NCBI GenBank assembly: GCA_039928735.1
Contig: JBDSSP010000061.1
Span: forward strand, 1 to 44,586
Length of the DNA stretch: 44,586 bases
Origin: Novosphingobium sp.
GTDB taxonomy: Bacteria; Pseudomonadota; Alphaproteobacteria; Sphingomonadales; Sphingomonadaceae
Direction of reading: 5' to 3'
Shown here: positions 29,219 to 42,263 of the stretch, in pieces
Layout: the number at the start of each line of letters is the position of its first letter
Numbering within the stretch: position 1 is the first letter of the stretch
Program-made: the position numbers and the translations under genes
Notes under the pieces: model-generated
Databases searched by the model: none
Seen by the model: the letters and a program-made list of their open reading frames with translations, nothing else
What the model was told of the DNA's origin: nothing

Positions 29219-31034
29219 CTATGCCATACGGATGTTACAAGGTTGATGGCGCAGAAGAGACTCGACTAAACTGCCAGCTCGCAGGACGTGCAGGACCCGG
29301 ATCGCCATGCCGTAGCCAGTATTCGAGAGGCGATACTTGCGCGCTGCAGCACCGGCACCCACGGAAATCTCGTAATAAGCGTAGAAGTCTTGGTTAAAAT
29401 AGCGGCTTACATTGTCCTTGTGCTTGGGACGGATTGCCGGAAACGCATCGGCGATCAACGACGCAATCTCCGTCGTGGTGTAGAATTGCCGTGTTTCATC
29501 TTCTTTCCACACGCGCAGTAGCGCAATCAGGATCGCATCCTGTAAGCCAACTTCGCCAAGGTTGGAGAGGCTGGCAAGACGCGCCGCGATATCGATCTCC
29601 TCCTCGCCAGCACCCCCTACCAGCAGGTCGATTTTCGTCAGATACGCAGCAATATCGCCCTGGTTTTCCAGCGGCTTCATTGTATCGAGTTGGCGGATCG
29701 CATCGAGTCCCATCCGCTGTTGTTGCAAGTCTCGGTCGTGGAACTCCGACGCATCGAGATCGTCGCCCGGTCGCGCCCTAGTGGTTCGTTTCCGACATTT
29801 CCATCCCTTTCGGATAGAGCAGAGGCACATGTCGGAAACATAAGAACCACTAGAGAAACTATTGGTTCTAGTGGATTTATAATTTTGACATTCGAACACT
29901 CCCTTGCCGAAACCGGGACTCGAATGTCAAAATCAATCCACTAGCACGCAGCCGGGCGAACCGGCTCGCTTCGTCTGCTTCTACGAAATGCTGGGTGAAC
30001 TCCTTGCCATGAACTCGCATTATTGAGTTCAGAAAAATTACCTCTTCCGGCGCGCAGAAGCCCGAGATCACCAGTGGTTCAGCCAGATTATCGAGCATAT
30101 ACTCGGTTGCCCTTTCCGCTGCGATCGTCGGCTTCTCGGCGAGCGCATATTCGGCGAAGTCGCCGATCGGAGTCCCGCCTCGAAATCCGTGTCGGTAGTA
30201 ATAACTCAGATGCATGAAGTCGCTCGCTTCAACATGTAGATACCCATAACGTCGCGCGAGGTACTGGCTTGCGGTGGTTTTACCAGCGCACGTGTAGCCA
30301 CAAAGCAAGATATTTGGTTTTCGGTCGAGTTGAAACGCAAGCTGGGTTGTGGGTGTTGGGAAATAACGGCGCGCCTCGAGAAAATCGAATAACTGCTCAA
30401 ATGCCCCGCGCCGGAAATCGACCTGGTCGGCATGCGCGATTGGCAGTGCACCTAGCGGCCCTTCGCAGCCCTCCGGCACGAACCACTTGTAAAAAGAACG
30501 ATTGTCGAGCCAAGGATAGACTGGGTTAGAGGCAAATATATGCTCCTTGTCTATGATGTTACCGCGCTGCTCGCTGGTGAACACCAGATATGCTGACTCG
30601 ACGCCCCAGCTCTTCGCAAAATTGGCCGGAATGTGAAGCAGTATGTCTGAGCGCACGCTGGCACCCCGATCGTTGCCGTAAGCCCTAAGCGAGGCATCAA
30701 GGCTCTCAAATGGGCGATCCTCCATCCAGTACTTAATATCGACGCCTGGCACCTCGTTCTCTGAATCGCTCAATGCATCGATACGCACTGAAGTATCTTC
30801 TAAGATGAACGCGTGGCTGGCTGCGGGCAGTCGGGCCTTTCCGATTTGCTCGAGCGCGCTAACATAACTTTGGGCGAGGATCTCATCCCGCGAATTTAGG
30901 CGCGGCTCTTCATAGCCGGCATGATAGGTCCGTTGTCGAAAGCCTTTGATTCGGATCTTTCGACTTTCAGCAATGTACCGGGCGTGCGCGATCTTCGTTT
31001 GGCTGCTCGTGAAGAAGGTCAGGTCACGCATCAC
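29219..31034 (-). pseudogene. Ham1/ITPase-like pyrophosphatase + P-loop nucleotide kinase + probable winged-helix fusion, interrupted by a MITE
   Basis: FFTSSQTK, LEDTSVRIDAL and PGVDIKYW (Ham1-like); LCGYTCAGKTT P-loop. Deleting 29778-29940 gives RFARLRARARPGDD and one 550 aa ORF. Confidence 0.8.
29778..29944. mobile_element. Non-autonomous double-hairpin MITE-like element with CTAG duplication
   Basis: CTAG at 29778, 29850, 29868 and 29941; two long stem-loops; ends CTAGTGG...CCACTAG; precise removal restores the host frame. Confidence 0.88.
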
Positions 31035-31285
31035 GGTGACTGATTTCCCGTCCCTGATTGGCTGGCGCGGTCAAATAGCTGTCGCAATCCAGGGCATGAG
31101 CAGCCGATGTGAGGTTCGCCATCCGGTGTGCGGGCGCGAAGCAAAACAGCATCGGTCCAAGGCTCGACATCCCAACACAATCAGCGCCGTTGGTCCGCAG
31201 CGCAGTCGCAATCCTTACTAGCCTGTAATCATATTCTGCTCGTTCGGCACGCTTCCAGTCGGTATCCTGCATCGCGTCTATGGCA
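31024..31285 (-). pseudogene. C-terminal fragment of a GHMP-superfamily protein, beta-RFAP synthase-like
   Basis: SAIDAMQDTDWKRAE...GADCVGMSSLGPMLFCF...APANQG; ATGCGTGA overlap with the Ham1 fusion; 5' part replaced by IS3 sequence. Confidence 0.65.
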
Positions 31286-32487
31286 GAACCAGTCGACCCA
31301 GCGCAGGGTCGCCATTTCGACCGCCGAAGCGCTTGGCCATAACCGTTGCCGCCAGATGACCTCGGCTTTGTAGAGGCCGTTGATGGTCTCGGCCAAAGCG
31401 TTGTCATAGGAGTCGCCGACGCTGCCGAGTGAGGGGACGAGTTCGGCTTCGGTGAGACGCTGGGTATAGCTCATGGCCAAGTATTGCACGCCCCTGTCGT
31501 TGTGATGGATCAGCCCATCCTCAGGACTTGGCCTGCGAGCATGGATCGCCTGCTCGAGGGCATCCAGCACAAAACTCGCCGTGGCCGAAGCGCTGACCTT
31601 CCAGCCCACGATCCGCCGGGCGTAAGCATCGATCACGAAGGCCACATAGACGAAGCCTGTCCAGGTGTGGACGTAGGTGAAGTCAACCACCCACAGTGCC
31701 TTGGGCCGGCTGACCTTGAACTCCCGGTTGACCCTGTCGAGCGGGCACGGTGCCTTGGGATTGCTGACAGTCGTGATTCAGGTTTTGCCGCGCCTTATCC
31801 GTGCCAGCCCGATCGCCCGCATCCGCCGTTCCACTGTGCACCTGGCCACTTTGATCCCTTCGCGTCGCAACTGGTGCCAGACCTTGCGCGTACCATAGAG
31901 GCCGAAGCTGGCCTCATGGACACGCACGATCTGCTGCCTGATCTCGTCATCGCGCCGGGCACGCGCTGATCGCAGCTGCGGATCGGCAAGGCGGGCCGCG
32001 TGTTCGTGCCAGGAAGAAGGGGCGCCAAAAAGACTCTGGCGCCAGTTCGCGGCAGATCGGCTCGATACCCAGTTCCCCGTGATGGGCGTCGATGAACGCC
32101 ATCACCATTTGCCTTGGTGCCAAGGGTTTTCGGCTCGCTCCGCCTGCGCAAAATATGCCGATGCTTTACGCAGGATCTCGTTGGCCCGGCGCAGCTCTTT
32201 CACCTCGCGCCCCAGTAGCTTCAATCGTTCCCGGTCATTACCGGCCAGCGCCGCTGGTCCCGATCGTCGGCTCGCCTCCTCGCGGCACCAGCGGCGCGGC
32301 GTCTCGGCCGTGCAGCCGATCTTCGCCGCGATCGAGGTCATTGCAGCCCGCTCCGAACCGTAATCGGCACGGTGCTCACCAACCATCCAGACCGCACGCT
32401 CGCGGACCTCAGGCGAAAACTTGTTCCTTGTCGTCATCACAACTCCTTCTCACAGATAGGAGCCTCCGGAGAACCCGGGACGCTTCA
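31286..32487 (-). mobile_element. Degenerate IS3-family element (orfA 32440-32102, frameshifted orfB), right end deleted
   Basis: IRL TGAAGCGTCCCGGGTTCTCCGGAGG starting at 32487; Orf[12 protein letters not shown]...[19 protein letters not shown]; OrfB DDE motifs WVVDFTYV, HHNDRGVQY, SYDNALAETINGLYKAE; breaks off after WVDWF. Confidence 0.93.
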
Positions 32488-36907: not shown

Positions 36908-38302
36908 GTGGATTCGTTTCGACCCATTCTAGCAAAAGTAGCCCGGCCCGGCCTGGCGAGAATCGGCATTTTTGCAACATTGCTAGTGCTTGCGGCATGG
37001 CATGCCGCAGCGGCTTCCCCGGCGGCGGCAACTGTCTCCCGCTACGAGGGCGTGGCGACTTGCGCCGGATCGACGTGCCACGGCAGAGCCGAGGGCAATG
37101 GCAAGGTGGTGCGGCAGGATGAGATGCGGCGTTGGCAGGAACCGTCTTCGCCAAGCGGAGTACATAGCCGCGCCTATGCCGTCCTTTCTGGCCACCGCGC
37201 GCAGCAAATCGCCGATTCACTGGGATTGGGCGCGGCATCCAGCGCTGGAGCCTGCCTCGGCTGCCACTCCACCAATGCGCCCCTCGGCTTGCGCGGCGAC
37301 CGCTATCAGGCTGGCGACGGCGTCGGTTGCGAATCCTGCCATGGCGCTTCGACTGGTTGGATCGCGACGCATTACACTGTGCTCGGTTCCCACGCCGCGA
37401 ACGTCGCCCATGGGCTGGCGCCGCTTGAAAATCCGGCAGTCCGGGCTTCGGTCTGTCTCGACTGCCACTTCGGCAGCGCCAAGCCGGGCCAGTTCGTCAC
37501 CCACCGCATGATGGCCGCCGGCCATCCCCGCATCGCCTTCGAACTCGACCTGTTCTCCTCGCTGCAGCAACATCACGACGAGGACGCCGACTACGCCCTG
37601 CGAAAAGGCCGCACCGACTCGGTGCGGTTGTGGGCGGTGGGCCAGGCGGAGGCCGTGCAGCGCTCGTTAAGTCTGTTCGCCAAACCGGACTTCGGCAGCC
37701 AGGGAATATTCCCGGAATTCTATTTCTACGATTGCCACAGTTGCCATCGCCAGATTTTCGATCAGGCAGAGCGCAAGCTGACGTTCGAGACCAATCCCGG
37801 CAGGCCGATCCCCTTCGGCATGGCGCCTTTCAACGACGAGAACATCATCATGCTCTCCGCCGTGGTGAAGGTGCTGGCTCCGGCTCAGGCGGCCACATTC
37901 GAGGGCGCATCGCGCAATTTCCATGCAGCGATGGGCCAGGGCCGGACGCAGGCGGTTGCGGCGGCAGCACGGCTCGGCGCGGCGGCGAGCGCGTTGTCGC
38001 GGGCGATGGCGCAGAAGTCCTATAGCAGCGACACGGCATTCACCGTGATTTCGACGATTGCCGGGCGGACGATTTCGCCGCGTTTCACCGACTACACCGG
38101 TTCGGCGCAAGCGGTGATGGCCGTTGACACTTTGCTCAATGCGCTGGTGAAAGAAGGGCGAGTGACACTGGGCGCCGCTGCTGGCATCCGCGCCAATATC
38201 AATCTTGCCTATGCGGCGGTCAAGGCGCCAAATAGCTACAATCCTGCCGCCTTCCGCACTGCGCTGGGCGAGGCAGCGCGCAGCATCGGGGCGCTGCGCT
38301 GA
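36908..38302 (+). CDS. Periplasmic multiheme cytochrome c (c554-like N-terminal domain), 5 heme motifs
   Basis: Signal peptide; CAGSTCH (CX4CH), CLGCH, GVGCESCHG, CLDCH, CHSCH. Confidence 0.9.
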   Translation: MDSFRPILAKVARPGLARIGIFATLLVLAAWHAAAASPAAATVSRYEGVATCAGSTCHGRAEGNGKVVRQDEMRRWQEPSSPSGVHSRAYAVLSGHRAQQIADSLGLGAASSAGACLGCHSTNAPLGLRGDRYQAGDGVGCESCHGASTGWIATHYTVLGSHAANVAHGLAPLENPAVRASVCLDCHFGSAKPGQFVTHRMMAAGHPRIAFELDLFSSLQQHHDEDADYALRKGRTDSVRLWAVGQAEAVQRSLSLFAKPDFGSQGIFPEFYFYDCHSCHRQIFDQAERKLTFETNPGRPIPFGMAPFNDENIIMLSAVVKVLAPAQAATFEGASRNFHAAMGQGRTQAVAAAARLGAAASALSRAMAQKSYSSDTAFTVISTIAGRTISPRFTDYTGSAQAVMAVDTLLNALVKEGRVTLGAAAGIRANINLAYAAVKAPNSYNPAAFRTALGEAARSIGALR

Positions 38303-40293
38303 TGCGCGGGTTCGGGCACATTCTCGCTGCGGCGTCCCTACTACTTTCGGCCTGCGGCGGCGACGGCGGCTCGGGAAGTGGCAGCACGTCGGGAGGCAGC
38401 TCCCCGACCAGCAGCGGCGGGTCGACCGGCGGATCGAGCAGTGGCGGCACAGCCTCGGTCTACACAGCCCCGGCACTCGAAGCCCTCAGCACGACCGATG
38501 TCGAACGGATCATCGCTCAGGCGGCCAATCAGGCTTCTTCCGCCAGCACCCCGGCAGTCATCGCCGTGACCGACCGGGTTGGCAATGTCCTCGCGCTGTT
38601 CCGCATGACCGGTGCCCCTGCCACGGCAAAGACCAGCCCGGCCCCCAATGGCGCCAGCATCGACGCGCAGAATCTTGATGTGCCCGCCGAAGCCGCCGCC
38701 ATCGCCAAGGCCGTGACCGGCGCCTACCTTTCAAGCGGCGGCAACGCCTTTTCAACGCGCACCGCCAGCATGATCGTGCAAACTCACTTCCCGCCCGCGC
38801 CCTCGACCGCAGGCCTCGAAAGCGGGCCGTTGTTCGGCGTGCAGTTCAGCCAGCTGCCCTGTTCGGACCTGGCGGCGCGTTTCACCCCATCGGGCGCTGA
38901 CGCGCTGATCGGGCCGAAGCGCTCGCCGCTGGGCCTTGCCGCCGATCCTGGCGGCTTTCCGCTCTACAAGAACGGCGTACTGGTCGGCGGCGTCGGGGCG
39001 ATTGCCGACGGGGTATACGGCTTCGATGCCAACGTGCTCGATATTGACAGCGACGCCGACGAGCGGATTGCGCTTGCCGGAACCGTCGGCTTCGAAGCAC
39101 CCGCCGCGATCCGTGCCAACCAGATAACGGTCGATGGCACCTCGCTGCGCTATTCCGACATCGATTATTCCGGCCTGTTCGACGTCACGGGCGCGAGCTA
39201 CGCCGCAACCAATCCGGCGCTGGGAATGCTGGTGCCGCTCACCGGATATTATGCCAGCCCCGCCGCGATCCGCGCCGGAACGGCCTACGGCAGCGAGAAT
39301 TCGGGCATCCGGCGCGCGACTGCCGCCGAATTCGCGCAACCCGATGCTTTCGTGCTGACCGACGGGCTGGGCGGGAATCGCTACCCGGTCAAGGCCGGCA
39401 CCGATGCCGCTGAAATTGGCACTGCCATGAGCGCTGCCGAGGCCCGGGCGATCCTAGGTGAGGCCTTCGCGGTCATGGCCAAGGCGCGCGCGCAAATCCG
39501 CCGACCGCTCGACAGCCGCGCGCAGGTGACGATCTCGCTTGTTGATACGCGCGGCGCGGTGCTCGGCATCGTCCGTTCGCCCGATGCGCCGATCTTTGGC
39601 ATCGATGTCAGCCTGCAGAAGGCGCGCACGGCAGCATTTCTCTCGAACGCAAATGCCGGCGCGGAGTTGCTCGCCGATCCCAGCGCCGATGTGCGTGGTT
39701 TCGTGGCGGCGATGCGCATGTTTATCCACGATCCGGCGGCCCTGGCCGGAACCGTCGCCTATTCAAACCGGGCGATCGGAAATCTGGCGCGACCCTATTT
39801 CCCTGACGGCGAGGTCGGCCGGCCCAATGGGCCGTTGTCGCGGCCAGTTGCGCAGTTCAATCCCTTTTCGACCGGGCTGCAATCCGCGCTGGTTCTGACC
39901 AATCTGGCACAGCATCTCAATTATATCTCGGGCGCCAGCAGTACCGATACGGCCCACCGCTGCACCTTCCTGCCCGATGCTGTCCCTGGGCAGAACCGGC
40001 TACAGAACGGCATCCAGATATTCCCAGGATCGTTTCCGGTCTATCGGGGAGGAACGCTCGTCGGGGCGATCGGCGTGTCTGGCGACGGCATAGACCAGGA
40101 CGACATGATCTCCTTCCTCGGGCTCAACAATGCCGGCCAGTCGGCGGGAGGCATCGGCAATGCCGCGGCGGCCAAGCGGGCGGACAATGTTACGGTCAAC
40201 GTCGGCGGCTCATTTGTGCGGCTGCGCTACGTAAACTGCCCGTTCGCACCCTTCATTGGCACTTCGGACCAGAATGTCTGCCAGGGCTTGTGA
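38302..40293 (+). CDS. Lipoprotein with two GlcG/HbpS-like heme-binding domains
   Basis: Lipobox LSAC, Gly/Ser linker; two repeats of the pattern (IAV/ISL)xDxxGxVL...(A/Q)KAxT...GG/SFPxYxxGxLVGxxG. Confidence 0.85.
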   Translation: MRGFGHILAAASLLLSACGGDGGSGSGSTSGGSSPTSSGGSTGGSSSGGTASVYTAPALEALSTTDVERIIAQAANQASSASTPAVIAVTDRVGNVLALFRMTGAPATAKTSPAPNGASIDAQNLDVPAEAAAIAKAVTGAYLSSGGNAFSTRTASMIVQTHFPPAPSTAGLESGPLFGVQFSQLPCSDLAARFTPSGADALIGPKRSPLGLAADPGGFPLYKNGVLVGGVGAIADGVYGFDANVLDIDSDADERIALAGTVGFEAPAAIRANQITVDGTSLRYSDIDYSGLFDVTGASYAATNPALGMLVPLTGYYASPAAIRAGTAYGSENSGIRRATAAEFAQPDAFVLTDGLGGNRYPVKAGTDAAEIGTAMSAAEARAILGEAFAVMAKARAQIRRPLDSRAQVTISLVDTRGAVLGIVRSPDAPIFGIDVSLQKARTAAFLSNANAGAELLADPSADVRGFVAAMRMFIHDPAALAGTVAYSNRAIGNLARPYFPDGEVGRPNGPLSRPVAQFNPFSTGLQSALVLTNLAQHLNYISGASSTDTAHRCTFLPDAVPGQNRLQNGIQIFPGSFPVYRGGTLVGAIGVSGDGIDQDDMISFLGLNNAGQSAGGIGNAAAAKRADNVTVNVGGSFVRLRYVNCPFAPFIGTSDQNVCQGL

Positions 40294-42263
40294 TGGCCAG
40301 CGCCGCGATCCTTGTCGCTGCCCTGTTGATGCAAGGCGCGGCCTCGGGAGCGCCCGACGCTGCGCCTGCCAGCCCCCGCGCGGCCGAAGCGCAGGCCCAG
40401 GCGACCGCGCCGGGCGCCGAGTCAGACCCACCGCGACCCGAACCCGCCCAGCCGCCGCCGGACGAAGAGGACATCGACGTCCCCGACGTCGCAACCGGCC
40501 AGATTGAAGGCCGCCGCCGTCCCGGTTACCAGCCTCGCCTGCCCGAACGGGTAACCCAGCGCAATCCCGGCGCGGTGCGTGCGCCGCCGCCCGAAGCGTT
40601 CCCCACCGATCAGCTTCCGGTGCCCGACCGGTGGCGGATCATGACCGGCCTGTGCCCTGGCAGGGCCGGCGACCCGTCGCTCTTTGAAGTATTCCTGACC
40701 ATGCGCGAGGTCTGCCATTCGTCGCGCGATCCCTATCACCAGAACACGCTCAAGGGCGATCGGCCCCTGGCCCGGGGGAAGCGGCCGGGCTTCCTCAGGG
40801 GCGACGACTGGTTCTTCAGCCTGGGCCTTACCAGCGACACGGTGATCGAGCCGCGCACCTTCCCGATCCCGGTCGGGGTGCAGACCACGGCGCGGCCCGG
40901 AAGCCTTGATACCTTCGGCAGATCGGGCAGCCTGGTTCTCGCGCAGACCTTCATAGCCAGCGCTTCGCTGCTGAAGGGGAGCACTGCTTTCAAGCCGCCG
41001 GAGATCGAATACAAGGTGTCGCTGGCGTTCAACGTCAACCATGTCCGGGTGCCGGAACGGCGGGTCCTGTTCGTCGAGCCGTCGAAAGGAACCAACCGCA
41101 CCGACGATTTCCTGGGCGTACAGGAAGCCTTTGTCGATCGTCACTTACGCAATACCTCGGACCGCTACGATTTCGATTCGCTGCGTATCGGCATTCAGCC
41201 GTTCCAGATCGACTTTCGCGGCTTTCTGTTCAACGACGATCAGCTCGGCATCCGCCTGTTCGGCAATCGCGACAACAACCGTTTTCAATATAACATTGCC
41301 GCTTTCTGGCGGCTCGAAAAGGACACCAACAGCGGCCTCAACAACCTCACCGAAAGCCCGCGCAAGGATTTCGTCTTCCTCGCCAATCTCTACCGGCAGG
41401 ACTTTCTCGTTCCGGGCCTCACCAGCCAGCTGACCCTCGCCTACAACCGCAACCGCGAGGGCGGGCGGATCAAGGTGGACGACAACGGATTCCCGGTGCG
41501 CCCGGCACTCCTCGGCGACCTGCGCCCCCGCAATTACGACGTGTTCTATCTCGGCTACAATGCCGACGGTCGGATCGGGCGGATCAACCTGACCGCCTCG
41601 ATCTATGGTGCCTTGGGCACGGACCGGACCAGCTTCTTCACATCTCGCCCCGCCAGTATCCGCGCCTTCTTCGGCGCGGCGGAGGTGAGCTACGACAGGA
41701 ACTGGATGCGCTTTCGCCTCTCGGGCCTCTACGCCAGCGGCGATGCCAATCCCAACGACGACAAGGAAGGTGGCTTCGATGCGATCTTCGAAAACCCGGT
41801 CTTTGCCGGGGCGGATACCAGCTACTGGATCCGCCAGAGCATTCCCTTCGCGGGGGGCGGACGGGCAGTTTCGCTCAACGGCCGCAATGGCATTCTCAAT
41901 TCGCTGCGATCGTCGAAGGAGCAGGGGCAATCAAATTTCAACAATCCCGGCACCGTGCTCGCGGGGGTGGGCGCCGATTGCGACCTGATGCCGCAATTGC
42001 GCCTTTCGGGTAACGCCAATCACCTGTGGTTCGCCAATACCGCAGTGCTTCAGGCGCTGCGCAATGAGGGCAGCATTCCCAAGTCGATCGGCTGGGACTT
42101 GTCGGCATCGACGATCTGGCGGCCCAAGGCGACGCAGAATATGGTGTTCCGCCTGTCGGCTGCTGCGCTGCTGCCGGGCAAAGGCTTCCGCGACCTATTT
42201 GACAATCAGAACGGGCACCGGAATTATTATTCGGTGTTGGTCAATGCGGTATTGAGCTTCTGA
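40290..42263 (+). CDS. Putative outer-membrane beta-barrel protein of unknown function
   Basis: Signal peptide, Pro-rich linker, many alternating amphipathic strands, C-terminal YSVLVNAVLSF beta-signal. Confidence 0.7.
   Translation: MMASAAILVAALLMQGAASGAPDAAPASPRAAEAQAQATAPGAESDPPRPEPAQPPPDEEDIDVPDVATGQIEGRRRPGYQPRLPERVTQRNPGAVRAPPPEAFPTDQLPVPDRWRIMTGLCPGRAGDPSLFEVFLTMREVCHSSRDPYHQNTLKGDRPLARGKRPGFLRGDDWFFSLGLTSDTVIEPRTFPIPVGVQTTARPGSLDTFGRSGSLVLAQTFIASASLLKGSTAFKPPEIEYKVSLAFNVNHVRVPERRVLFVEPSKGTNRTDDFLGVQEAFVDRHLRNTSDRYDFDSLRIGIQPFQIDFRGFLFNDDQLGIRLFGNRDNNRFQYNIAAFWRLEKDTNSGLNNLTESPRKDFVFLANLYRQDFLVPGLTSQLTLAYNRNREGGRIKVDDNGFPVRPALLGDLRPRNYDVFYLGYNADGRIGRINLTASIYGALGTDRTSFFTSRPASIRAFFGAAEVSYDRNWMRFRLSGLYASGDANPNDDKEGGFDAIFENPVFAGADTSYWIRQSIPFAGGGRAVSLNGRNGILNSLRSSKEQGQSNFNNPGTVLAGVGADCDLMPQLRLSGNANHLWFANTAVLQALRNEGSIPKSIGWDLSASTIWRPKATQNMVFRLSAAALLPGKGFRDLFDNQNGHRNYYSVLVNAVLSF

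What the first reader, a model, noticed from the sequence alone, without database searches (positions are those of the whole stretch)
29219..31285. Remnant of an unusual nucleotide-chemistry operon: RFAP-synthase-like GHMP enzyme coupled to a Ham1-kinase-wHTH fusion (candidate defence or non-canonical nucleotide system)
Seen: a GHMP-type C-terminus (GMSSLGP...PANQG) overlaps by ATGCGTGA a gene that, once the MITE is removed, encodes 550 aa with a Ham1/ITPase-like domain, a P-loop kinase (GYTCAGKTT; lid RLRARARPGD..F..RD..GL) and a C-terminal segment that looks like a winged helix. Known: beta-RFAP-synthase-like GHMP enzymes (including ForT of formycin synthesis) join PRPP to a ring to form C-ribotides; Ham1 proteins bind or hydrolyse non-canonical purine NTPs; a HAM1-like protein (KomB) senses dITP in Kongming anti-phage defence. 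Inference: the operon could make, phosphorylate and sense or sanitise an unusual nucleotide, as an antiviral or toxin module carried by the island. I do not recognise this architecture from any described system. This copy is broken and upstream genes are lost.
Basis: partly seen in the sequence, partly recalled or inferred. Interest (0 to 1): 0.85.

Follow-up and report, generated by a model that had tools for sequence, protein, structure and literature searches.

The report
Methylase-linked C-nucleotide defence cassette remnant
This is a broken copy of a rare, mobile four-gene bacterial cassette (DNA adenine methylase, membrane protein, a ribose-attaching enzyme of the C-nucleoside type, and a nucleotide pyrophosphatase-kinase fusion) that likely defends against phages by turning breakdown of methylated host DNA into an unusual nucleotide alarm that would trigger the membrane protein.

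Summary
Observation confirmed. A 163-bp repeat with a CTAG duplication splits a Ham1–NMP-kinase–winged-helix gene, and an IS3-adjacent deletion leaves only 84 codons of an RFAP-synthase/ForT-like gene. Of 57 GTDB loci, 42 hold all four genes in one order (36 intact): N6-adenine DNA methylase > 2TM protein with a dead PLD/TrmB fold > RFAP-synthase-like > fusion. A distant second clade keeps the three-gene core and pairs it with other D12 methylases at varying positions. The Ham1 domain keeps its catalytic Asp (48 of 48) but has a rebuilt base pocket (SHR→DFR), so it is neither an ITP cleaner nor KomB. The synthase keeps ForT's PRPP and catalytic residues. The cassette is sporadic and often next to mobile genes. 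Defence enrichment is modest (20 of 230 vs 2 of 119 ORFs under a post-hoc filter; not significant without it). Best reading: an undescribed, methylation-coupled nucleotide-signalling abortive defence that works like Metis/Kongming but belongs to neither. No function has been tested, and I found no description in print.

The parts
31024..31281 (-). 3' remnant (84 codons, family profile positions 248-331) of an RFAP-synthase/ForT-like GHMP-fold gene; the 5' three quarters are deleted
31024..31031 (-). ATGCGTGA start/stop overlap joining the RFAP-like gene to the fusion gene
   Evidence: sequence
30384..31031 (-). Ham1/ITPase-fold domain: catalytic EDTS Asp kept, SHR->DFR; N182Y in this copy
29941..30317 (-). 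NMP-kinase-like domain, 5' part (P-loop GYTCAGKTT, HVEASD; R327C in this copy)
29778..29944 (.). 163-bp non-autonomous repeat (MITE-like, two stacked hairpins) plus duplicated CTAG target, inserted in the kinase lid
29609..29777 (-). NMP-kinase-like domain, 3' part (ARPGD...RD...MGL)
29219..29545 (-). C-terminal predicted winged helix (TTTEIA...KHKDNVSRYFNQ...YRLSNTG) and stop; last ~19 codons not homologous to relatives
31286..32487 (-). IS3-family remnant (orfA HTH_Tnp_1, ALIL pseudoknot, rve integrase). Its orfB is cut at the junction with the RFAP-like gene, where the methylase, the TM gene and most of the RFAP gene are missing

Best explanation
The locus is a dead copy of a conserved four-gene cassette that likely acts as an abortive anti-phage system coupled to host adenine methylation. 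Shown: gene content and order, folds, motif states, sporadic spread, repeated pairing with N6-adenine methylases. Inferred steps: (1) the methylase marks host DNA with m6A; (2) phage-driven host DNA breakdown releases m6dAMP; (3) the fusion protein, whose Ham1 pocket is rebuilt away from 6-oxopurines, reads the methylated nucleotide, with its kinase moving monophosphates up and its Ham1 domain holding basal triphosphate down; (4) this lets the RFAP/ForT-like enzyme build a PRPP-derived C-ribonucleotide that accumulates as messenger; (5) the messenger binds the catalytically dead PLD/TrmB-fold domain of the 2TM protein, which damages the membrane and aborts infection. The order of steps 3-4 and the identity of the messenger are the weakest links.
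For: Operon: fusion in 57, RFAP in 52, TM in 49 and methylase in 43 of 57 loci; all four in 42, all four intact in 36; hosts span Pseudomonadota, Bacteroidota, Ignavibacteriota and Campylobacterota. dN/dS is 0.09-0.21 for all four genes (L001 vs L002). Second clade (80 best of 126 metagenome hits): RFAP-like ORF cluster in 68, TM cluster in 50, Dam-like D12 methylase in 21 and a third methylase type in 3, up- or downstream and in either orientation; alignments between the three methylase types are weak (about 26% identity or less over long alignments). Ham1 column counts over 48 clade-A proteins: catalytic D 48, K101 48, DFR 48, F-N-x-W 47-48, against SHR/FGYDP in host RdgBs. ForT R19, H99, T106, R135, T138, S139, S174 and E211 have counterparts. 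TM protein: 2 hydrophobic segments in 35 of 37; PLD/TrmB fold (VIA Z 14.0, rmsd 2.7 A, 138 aligned); HKD lysine replaced at the active-site position. 40 of 41 hosts have a separate canonical RdgB. A full-length fusion was found in 1 of 400 other genomes of the host family. Neighbours include Hachiman, AbiE, IetS, type I RM, AbiV, SoFic and relaxases or recombinases. In the loci with RFAP and fusion intact but a gene damaged, the TM gene is often the one lost or broken (L004, L007, L026), as expected of a costly effector. Metis authors predict systems that carry their own methylase.
Against: No experiment. Defence enrichment is weak: 20 of 230 flank ORFs vs 2 of 119 control ORFs (p 0.01) only with a >=50% profile-coverage filter chosen after seeing the hits. 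Any-hit counts are 26 of 230 vs 9 of 119 (p 0.35), and by locus 14 of 50 vs 2 of 19 (p 0.2). 36 of 50 loci show no recognised defence gene within 4 kb. Of 19 clade-B loci with >=1.5 kb on both sides, 8 lack a D12 methylase. Two clade-A loci with an intact core and no or a truncated methylase (L049, L019) show no Dam in their genomes. Some methylases have DSPY/DVPY/DTPY/DPTY instead of DPPY. Nothing shows that the Ham1 or kinase pocket accepts m6-adenine, or what the synthase's acceptor is.
Confidence: 0.4

Rival explanations
1. Guard model: the winged helix reads methylation on the DNA polymer and keeps the synthase off. Loss of methylated host DNA, or unmethylated phage DNA, releases C-nucleotide signalling to the TM effector. 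The trigger is DNA, not m6dAMP.
For: The wHTH has invariant K/N/S/R/F/N residues in its predicted recognition helix and is kept in both clades; the methylase link. m6A-reading winged helices such as that of DpnI are recalled, not from a call.
Against: L019 has a truncated methylase, an intact core and no Dam found, which argues against the methylase being an essential antitoxin. The DpnI_C Atlas score is only 0.80, a level shuffled proteins often reach.
Confidence: 0.17
2. Viperin-like antiviral chemistry: synthase plus kinase make a C-nucleotide triphosphate that poisons phage polymerases, and Ham1 protects the host. The methylase and TM gene are accessory.
For: ForT-like catalytic residues, NMP-kinase fold, catalytically intact Ham1 with a new pocket.
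Against: It does not explain the TM gene in 49 of 57 loci or the methylases of several types; there are no genes for making a base ring.
Confidence: 0.13
3. Pre-replicative base-modification pathway (T4 gp56/gp42/gp1 logic): Ham1 makes an NMP, the synthase phosphoribosylates or builds a base, and the kinase re-phosphorylates it for incorporation as an epigenetic self mark.
For: Pyrophosphatase + kinase + base-building enzyme is the same part list. Earlier unchecked AI notes of this scan describe similar Ham1/kinase modules with ThyA/ThyX.
Against: No polymerase or nuclease in the cassette; the PLD fold lacks HKD and is membrane-anchored. No relative was found in viral contigs or, for the fusion, in phage records.
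Confidence: 0.1
4. Addiction or toxin-antitoxin module of mobile elements with no anti-phage role.
For: Frequent relaxase, recombinase and IS neighbours; plasmid copies; weak defence enrichment.
Against: Four enzymatic or membrane parts under purifying selection are elaborate for addiction; the methylase can be lost with the core intact.
Confidence: 0.12
5. Ordinary metabolism: a methanopterin-branch RFAP synthase beside a housekeeping ITPase.
For: The synthase scores above the TIGR00144 family cut-off.
Against: It is far below the NF040726 equivalog cut-off (153-176 vs 328 bits). True methanopterin-type genes sit with mch/mtd/fhc and differ at ForT T138 and the S174 loop. Hosts have their own RdgB.
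Confidence: 0.03

Closest known systems
Metis (types I/II, putative type III; bioRxiv 10.1101/2025.11.05.686725, parts 1-4 of 5 of the text read, supplements not seen)
   Same: Link to N6-adenine DNA methylation; a transmembrane effector (type II); a nucleotide-clearing enzyme; the authors predict versions with their own methylase.
   Different: No calcineurin-like MisA or HAD MisB among the four genes. The TM protein has 2 helices plus a PLD fold rather than 3 helices. The cassette adds an RFAP/ForT-like synthase and a Ham1-kinase-wHTH fusion.
Kongming (KomABC; bioRxiv 10.1101/2024.12.20.629578 and PMC13454610, passages read)
   Same: A Ham1-fold protein in a probable defence operon; a monophosphate kinase step toward a non-canonical triphosphate.
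   Different: KomB has Asp->His and keeps the ITP pocket; here the Asp is kept and the pocket is changed. No deaminase, no Sir2. The kinase is encoded by the system, not by the phage.
ForT / RFAP (RHP) synthase C-glycoside synthases (PDB 6yqq; PMC8183095 part 1 of 3, PMC9832568 passages)
   Same: GHMP fold by sequence (E 3e-21 to 6yqq); PRPP-binding and catalytic residues kept, including E211 and T138.
   Different: Acceptor-site residues differ (S21->H, Q266->E); no ring-building or methanopterin genes nearby; defence-like context.
RdgB/Ham1/ITPA pyrophosphatases
   Same: Fold (VIA Z 20.6, rmsd 2.2 A, 186 aligned to 1v7r); catalytic Asp, Lys, Glu and Arg of the SHR motif kept.
   Different: SHR->DFR, FGYDP->FN[KG]W, preceding Lys->Ala/Ser; fused to a kinase and a wHTH; hosts keep a separate RdgB.
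TrmB/TrmBL2 effector-binding domain, FAM83, DUF5919 (dead PLD folds)
   Same: Fold of the TM protein's soluble domain; a DUF5919 cluster scores 0.94 in the Atlas (31% of its members carry the family).
   Different: Membrane-anchored by two helices; ligand unknown.

Membership tests
Kongming | KomB catalytic Asp replaced by His | tested here: not met
   Asp in 48 of 48 clade-A proteins and EDTS in 64 of 64 pattern-extracted clade-B domains; KomB feature
Kongming | ITP-recognition pocket retained | tested here: not met
   SHR->DFR, FGYDP->FN[KG]W
Kongming | Sir2 effector KomC and deaminase KomA in the operon | tested here: not met
   Pfam/NCBIfam/PADLOC of representatives of the four conserved genes; no fifth gene is conserved
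Metis | MisA (PF00149) or MisB (PF13419) present | tested here: not met
   No such Pfam hit in representatives of the four genes
Metis | MisC-type 3TM effector | tested here: inconclusive
   The TM protein has 2 helices plus a PLD fold; no MisC sequence was available to compare
Metis | Activation by m6dAMP and dependence on a methylase | not testable with these tools
   Only genomic association
RFAP synthase family (TIGR00144) | Score above the family cut-off; PRPP-binding residues | tested here: met
   137.6 and 152.8 bits vs cut-off 113.5; residues mapped to ForT
Methanopterin RFAP synthase (NF040726 equivalog) | Equivalog score and H4MPT gene context | tested here: not met
   152.8 and 176.2 vs 328 bits; context and motifs differ from mptG-type genes
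Ham1/ITPase superfamily | Fold and catalytic Asp | tested here: met
Housekeeping RdgB/ITPA | SHR and FGYDP base-specificity motifs; TIGR00042 cut-off | tested here: not met
   the role of these motifs is partly recalled (PMC9016069 passage names Asp72, Glu44, Arg178, F149)
NMP kinase fold | P-loop, NMP-binding GFR and lid arginines | tested here: met
   VIA Z 20.8, rmsd 2.2 A, 168 aligned to 3lw7; motifs in 47-48 of 48; substrate not identified
Winged helix | Three helices, beta wing, closing helix | tested here: inconclusive
   Predicted topology fits; Atlas best score 0.88 to WHD_DUF6293, a lead only; domain not folded alone
Type II restriction-modification / PLD nuclease | Active nuclease with HxKxxxxD | tested here: not met
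   Lys replaced at the active-site position in the TM-PLD family

The most novel reading that the evidence does not exclude
The first immune system to use a C-glycosidic nucleotide as messenger: m6dAMP from phage-degraded host DNA is read by a re-tooled Ham1/kinase, a ForT-like enzyme then makes a C-ribonucleotide from PRPP, and this opens a 2TM effector through a dead PLD/TrmB-fold receptor.
Probability: 0.25. Interest if true: 0.95.

Novelty: categorically new. Interest (0 to 1): 0.8.

Why it matters
If true, C-nucleoside synthases, so far known from antibiotic and methanopterin synthesis, would join the signal-making enzymes of bacterial immunity. It would add a new messenger class resistant to glycosidases (an inference from the C-C bond), a new receptor fold (DUF5919-like dead PLD) and the self-methylating danger-sensing design that the Metis authors predicted. 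Even under the rival readings, it gives an uncharacterised C-glycosyltransferase clade and a Ham1 clade with new base specificity. Intact copies exist in cultured environmental strains, so the test is direct.

Tried and rejected
Complex prediction of fusion plus synthase: no verdict (score 0.00), not used as evidence. The PADLOC scan of the core genes found only generic type II MTase models, no system. No relatives in viral contigs for the fusion or the synthase, none in phage records for the fusion; the viral scan for the TM alignment could not run. Profile searches of the wHTH against PDB sequences gave nothing credible, and the two clades' wHTH profiles did not match each other significantly. 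Host Dam as stand-in: 6 of 48 genomes have Dam over the cut-off; both methylase-less intact Rheinheimera loci do, against 3 of 42 loci with a whole or partial operon methylase, but L049 and L019 do not, and the two Rheinheimera are kin, so this is only a hint. The promoter/terminator scan was at chance level. No RNA holder was listed. Rfam found only the IS3 ALIL pseudoknot. The missing methylase, TM and RFAP 5' part were not found elsewhere in the 79%-complete assembly. The tree of 87 synthases is the quick, unfinished version. Literature: no paper holds Ham1+GHMP+methyltransferase+operon or DUF5919; searches listed no description of this cassette; the modularity-network preprint has no HAM1/GHMP terms in its main text. 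Supplementary tables of large defence-prediction screens and of the Metis preprint were not seen and may list it. Earlier scan findings by sequence and place: none.

Full report
Observation. The minus strand holds a GHMP-type C-terminus whose stop overlaps the next start by ATGCGTGA at 31031-31024. The downstream gene is split by a 163-bp insert with CTAG on both sides (29778, 29941). The insert folds into two hairpins (z -9.4 against 200 shuffles), has 24 blastn hits in the assembly and occurs in 5 of 60 other genomes of the genus. The orthologue in Magnetospirillum LM-5 aligns at 82-84% nucleotide identity on both sides and is continuous at the site, so the insert is a real insertion. Upstream, homology to the orthologue stops at 31281 and an IS3-family remnant starts at 31286, with its integrase gene cut at that junction. 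Contigs from runs of one study bridge the IS junction and the left repeat junction. The copy also has N182Y and R327C at positions 98-100% conserved. It is dead. Low dN/dS against the orthologue (0.10-0.21) says most divergence happened while it was functional.

What the intact system is. The 5' piece found 315 relatives, mostly about 535 aa. A scan of GTDB genomes gave 57 loci. Profile searches of their six frames found the fusion in 57, the RFAP-like gene in 52, a TM gene in 49 and a methylase in 43; all four in 42, always in the order methylase > TM > RFAP-like > fusion. All four are intact in 36; several of the rest are cut by contig ends. Two Rhizobium plasmids carry the same four annotated genes. 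No other neighbour is conserved. The cassette is rare and patchy: 1 of 400 other genomes of the host family has a full-length fusion, and TM homologues were in 3 of 401 genomes of the phylum, each beside the RFAP-like gene. The window copy is closer to Magnetospirillum (84% aa) than the family member Qipengyuania is (51%), which points to horizontal gain.

A second clade. The representative search found more distant fusions. Their 80 best metagenome loci, of 126 confirmed, keep TM > RFAP-like > fusion (TM cluster in 50, RFAP-like in 68; many contigs are short). A Dam-like D12 methylase lies nearby in 21 loci and another D12 type in 3, upstream or downstream and on either strand. Of 19 loci with at least 1.5 kb on both sides, 11 have one (8 of 15 after merging near-copies); of the other 7, two have an N6/N4 methylase and two a type I RM subunit nearby. 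The three methylase types are only distantly alike, so the partnership has likely been re-formed more than once.

The parts. Methylase: Pfam D12 N6-adenine family, DPPY in 31 of 38 and DSPY/DVPY/DTPY in 7. TM protein: AlphaFold model pLDDT 91.7, two hydrophobic segments in 35 of 37, then a PLD-superfamily fold closest to TrmBL2/TrmB effector domains and FAM83 (Z 13.5-14.0, tied with PLD nucleases). The HKD lysine is replaced, so a ligand-binding role is inferred. Synthase: above the TIGR00144 cut-off, far below the methanopterin equivalog, E 3e-21 to ForT. The residues that hold PRPP in ForT (R19, H99, T106, R135, S139; PMC8183095, part 1 of 3 read) and the catalytic E211, T138 and S174 (PMC9832568 passages) have counterparts; S21 and Q266, which bind the acceptor's retained carboxylate, are His and Glu. 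Methanopterin-type genes lack the T138 and S174-loop features (3 compared). Fusion: model pLDDT 89.2, ITPase fold (Z 20.6) and NMP-kinase fold (Z 20.8). The catalytic Asp is in 48 of 48, while the base pocket reads FN[KR]W and DFR instead of FGYDP and SHR. Hosts keep a canonical RdgB (40 of 41). The winged helix is supported by predicted topology and weak leads only.

Defence context. I scanned 230 of 245 flanking ORFs (>=180 aa, within 4 kb, 50 loci) with NCBIfam, and the 132 mostly unnamed ones with PADLOC. As control I scanned 119 of 133 ORFs from 20 fixed-position regions of the same hosts. With a half-profile coverage filter set after looking, the counts are 20 of 230 vs 2 of 119 (p 0.01); without it 26 vs 9 (p 0.35); by locus 14 of 50 vs 2 of 19 (p 0.2). 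Hachiman, AbiE, IetS, type I RM, AbiV and SoFic do occur next door, as do relaxases and recombinases, but most loci show none. This supports a defence role modestly.

Mechanism. The part list reads as mark, sensor/clearer, signal maker and membrane effector. Metis shows that m6dAMP from phage-degraded host DNA can be a danger signal, that a TM protein can be the effector, and predicts systems with their own methylase (parts 1-4 of 5 read). Kongming shows a Ham1 fold and a monophosphate kinase step in signalling (passages). I commit to: m6A marking, m6dAMP release, reading by the fusion, synthesis of a PRPP-derived C-ribonucleotide, and activation of the 2TM protein. All five steps are inferred. 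That yeast HAM1 handles an N6-substituted purine analogue (reference title) makes an N6-methyl-adenine pocket plausible, not shown. The decay pattern fits a costly TM effector (L004, L007, L026 lose or break it while synthase and fusion stay intact), and a truncated methylase beside an intact core (L019) fits a trigger role better than an antitoxin role. I put defence of some kind near 0.7 and this methylation-coupled signalling model at 0.4.

Comparison and novelty. The cassette fails the defining tests for Kongming, for Metis types I/II, for methanopterin RFAP synthase and for housekeeping ITPase. It works like Metis/Kongming only by inference. PADLOC has no model for the three core genes, and my literature searches found no description; subscription papers and supplementary tables of large screens were not visible. 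The architecture is new; the function is untested. Interest 0.8.

Noticed in passing
window 29778-29944; G000 (24 hits); G046, G059, G052, G062: Repeat family made of two stacked CTAG-bounded hairpins with CTAG target duplication; abundant but patchy in the genus (5 of 60 other genomes); no autonomous partner identified.
   Followed up: partly
window 31286-32487: IS3-family remnant with ALIL frameshift pseudoknot (32037-32159); one end lost in the deletion that removed the upstream cassette genes.
   Followed up: partly
L098, L100, L124, L127, L135, L136: Clade-B cassettes often sit next to a Dam-like methylase paired with a ~780-aa DndB/DGQHR-like protein (PF14072 hit below cut-off), possibly a second defence module.
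   Followed up: no
L038:11602-12249, L041:11593-12264, L042:11735-12406: A ~220-aa gene (MtlR-like in the one copy scanned, L038) follows the fusion directly in three loci from Bacteroidota and Betaproteobacteria.
   Followed up: no
L022:9266-11386; L008:9806-11470: In-frame deletions fuse RFAP-like sequence to a Ham1 domain lacking its N-terminus, in loci that also lost or broke the TM gene.
   Followed up: partly
L113, L127, L153, L154 (Dam-like) and L033, L035, L036, L038, L041, L043, L047: Methylases with non-standard motif IV (DPTY, DSPY, DVPY, DTPY); activity unknown.
   Followed up: no
L199:4881-6025 (Neorhizobium plasmid): A frameshifted ForT/RFAP-like gene among amidohydrolase and luciferase-like monooxygenase genes, without the other cassette genes; perhaps an unrelated C-nucleoside pathway.
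   Followed up: partly
window 36908-42263: Multiheme cytochrome c554-like gene, HbpS-like repeat protein and a 657-aa protein without Pfam hit, in one run.
   Followed up: no
L002: A contig labelled Stygiobacter (Ignavibacteriota) carries a cassette 89% identical to Magnetospirillum's: recent transfer or misbinning.
   Followed up: no
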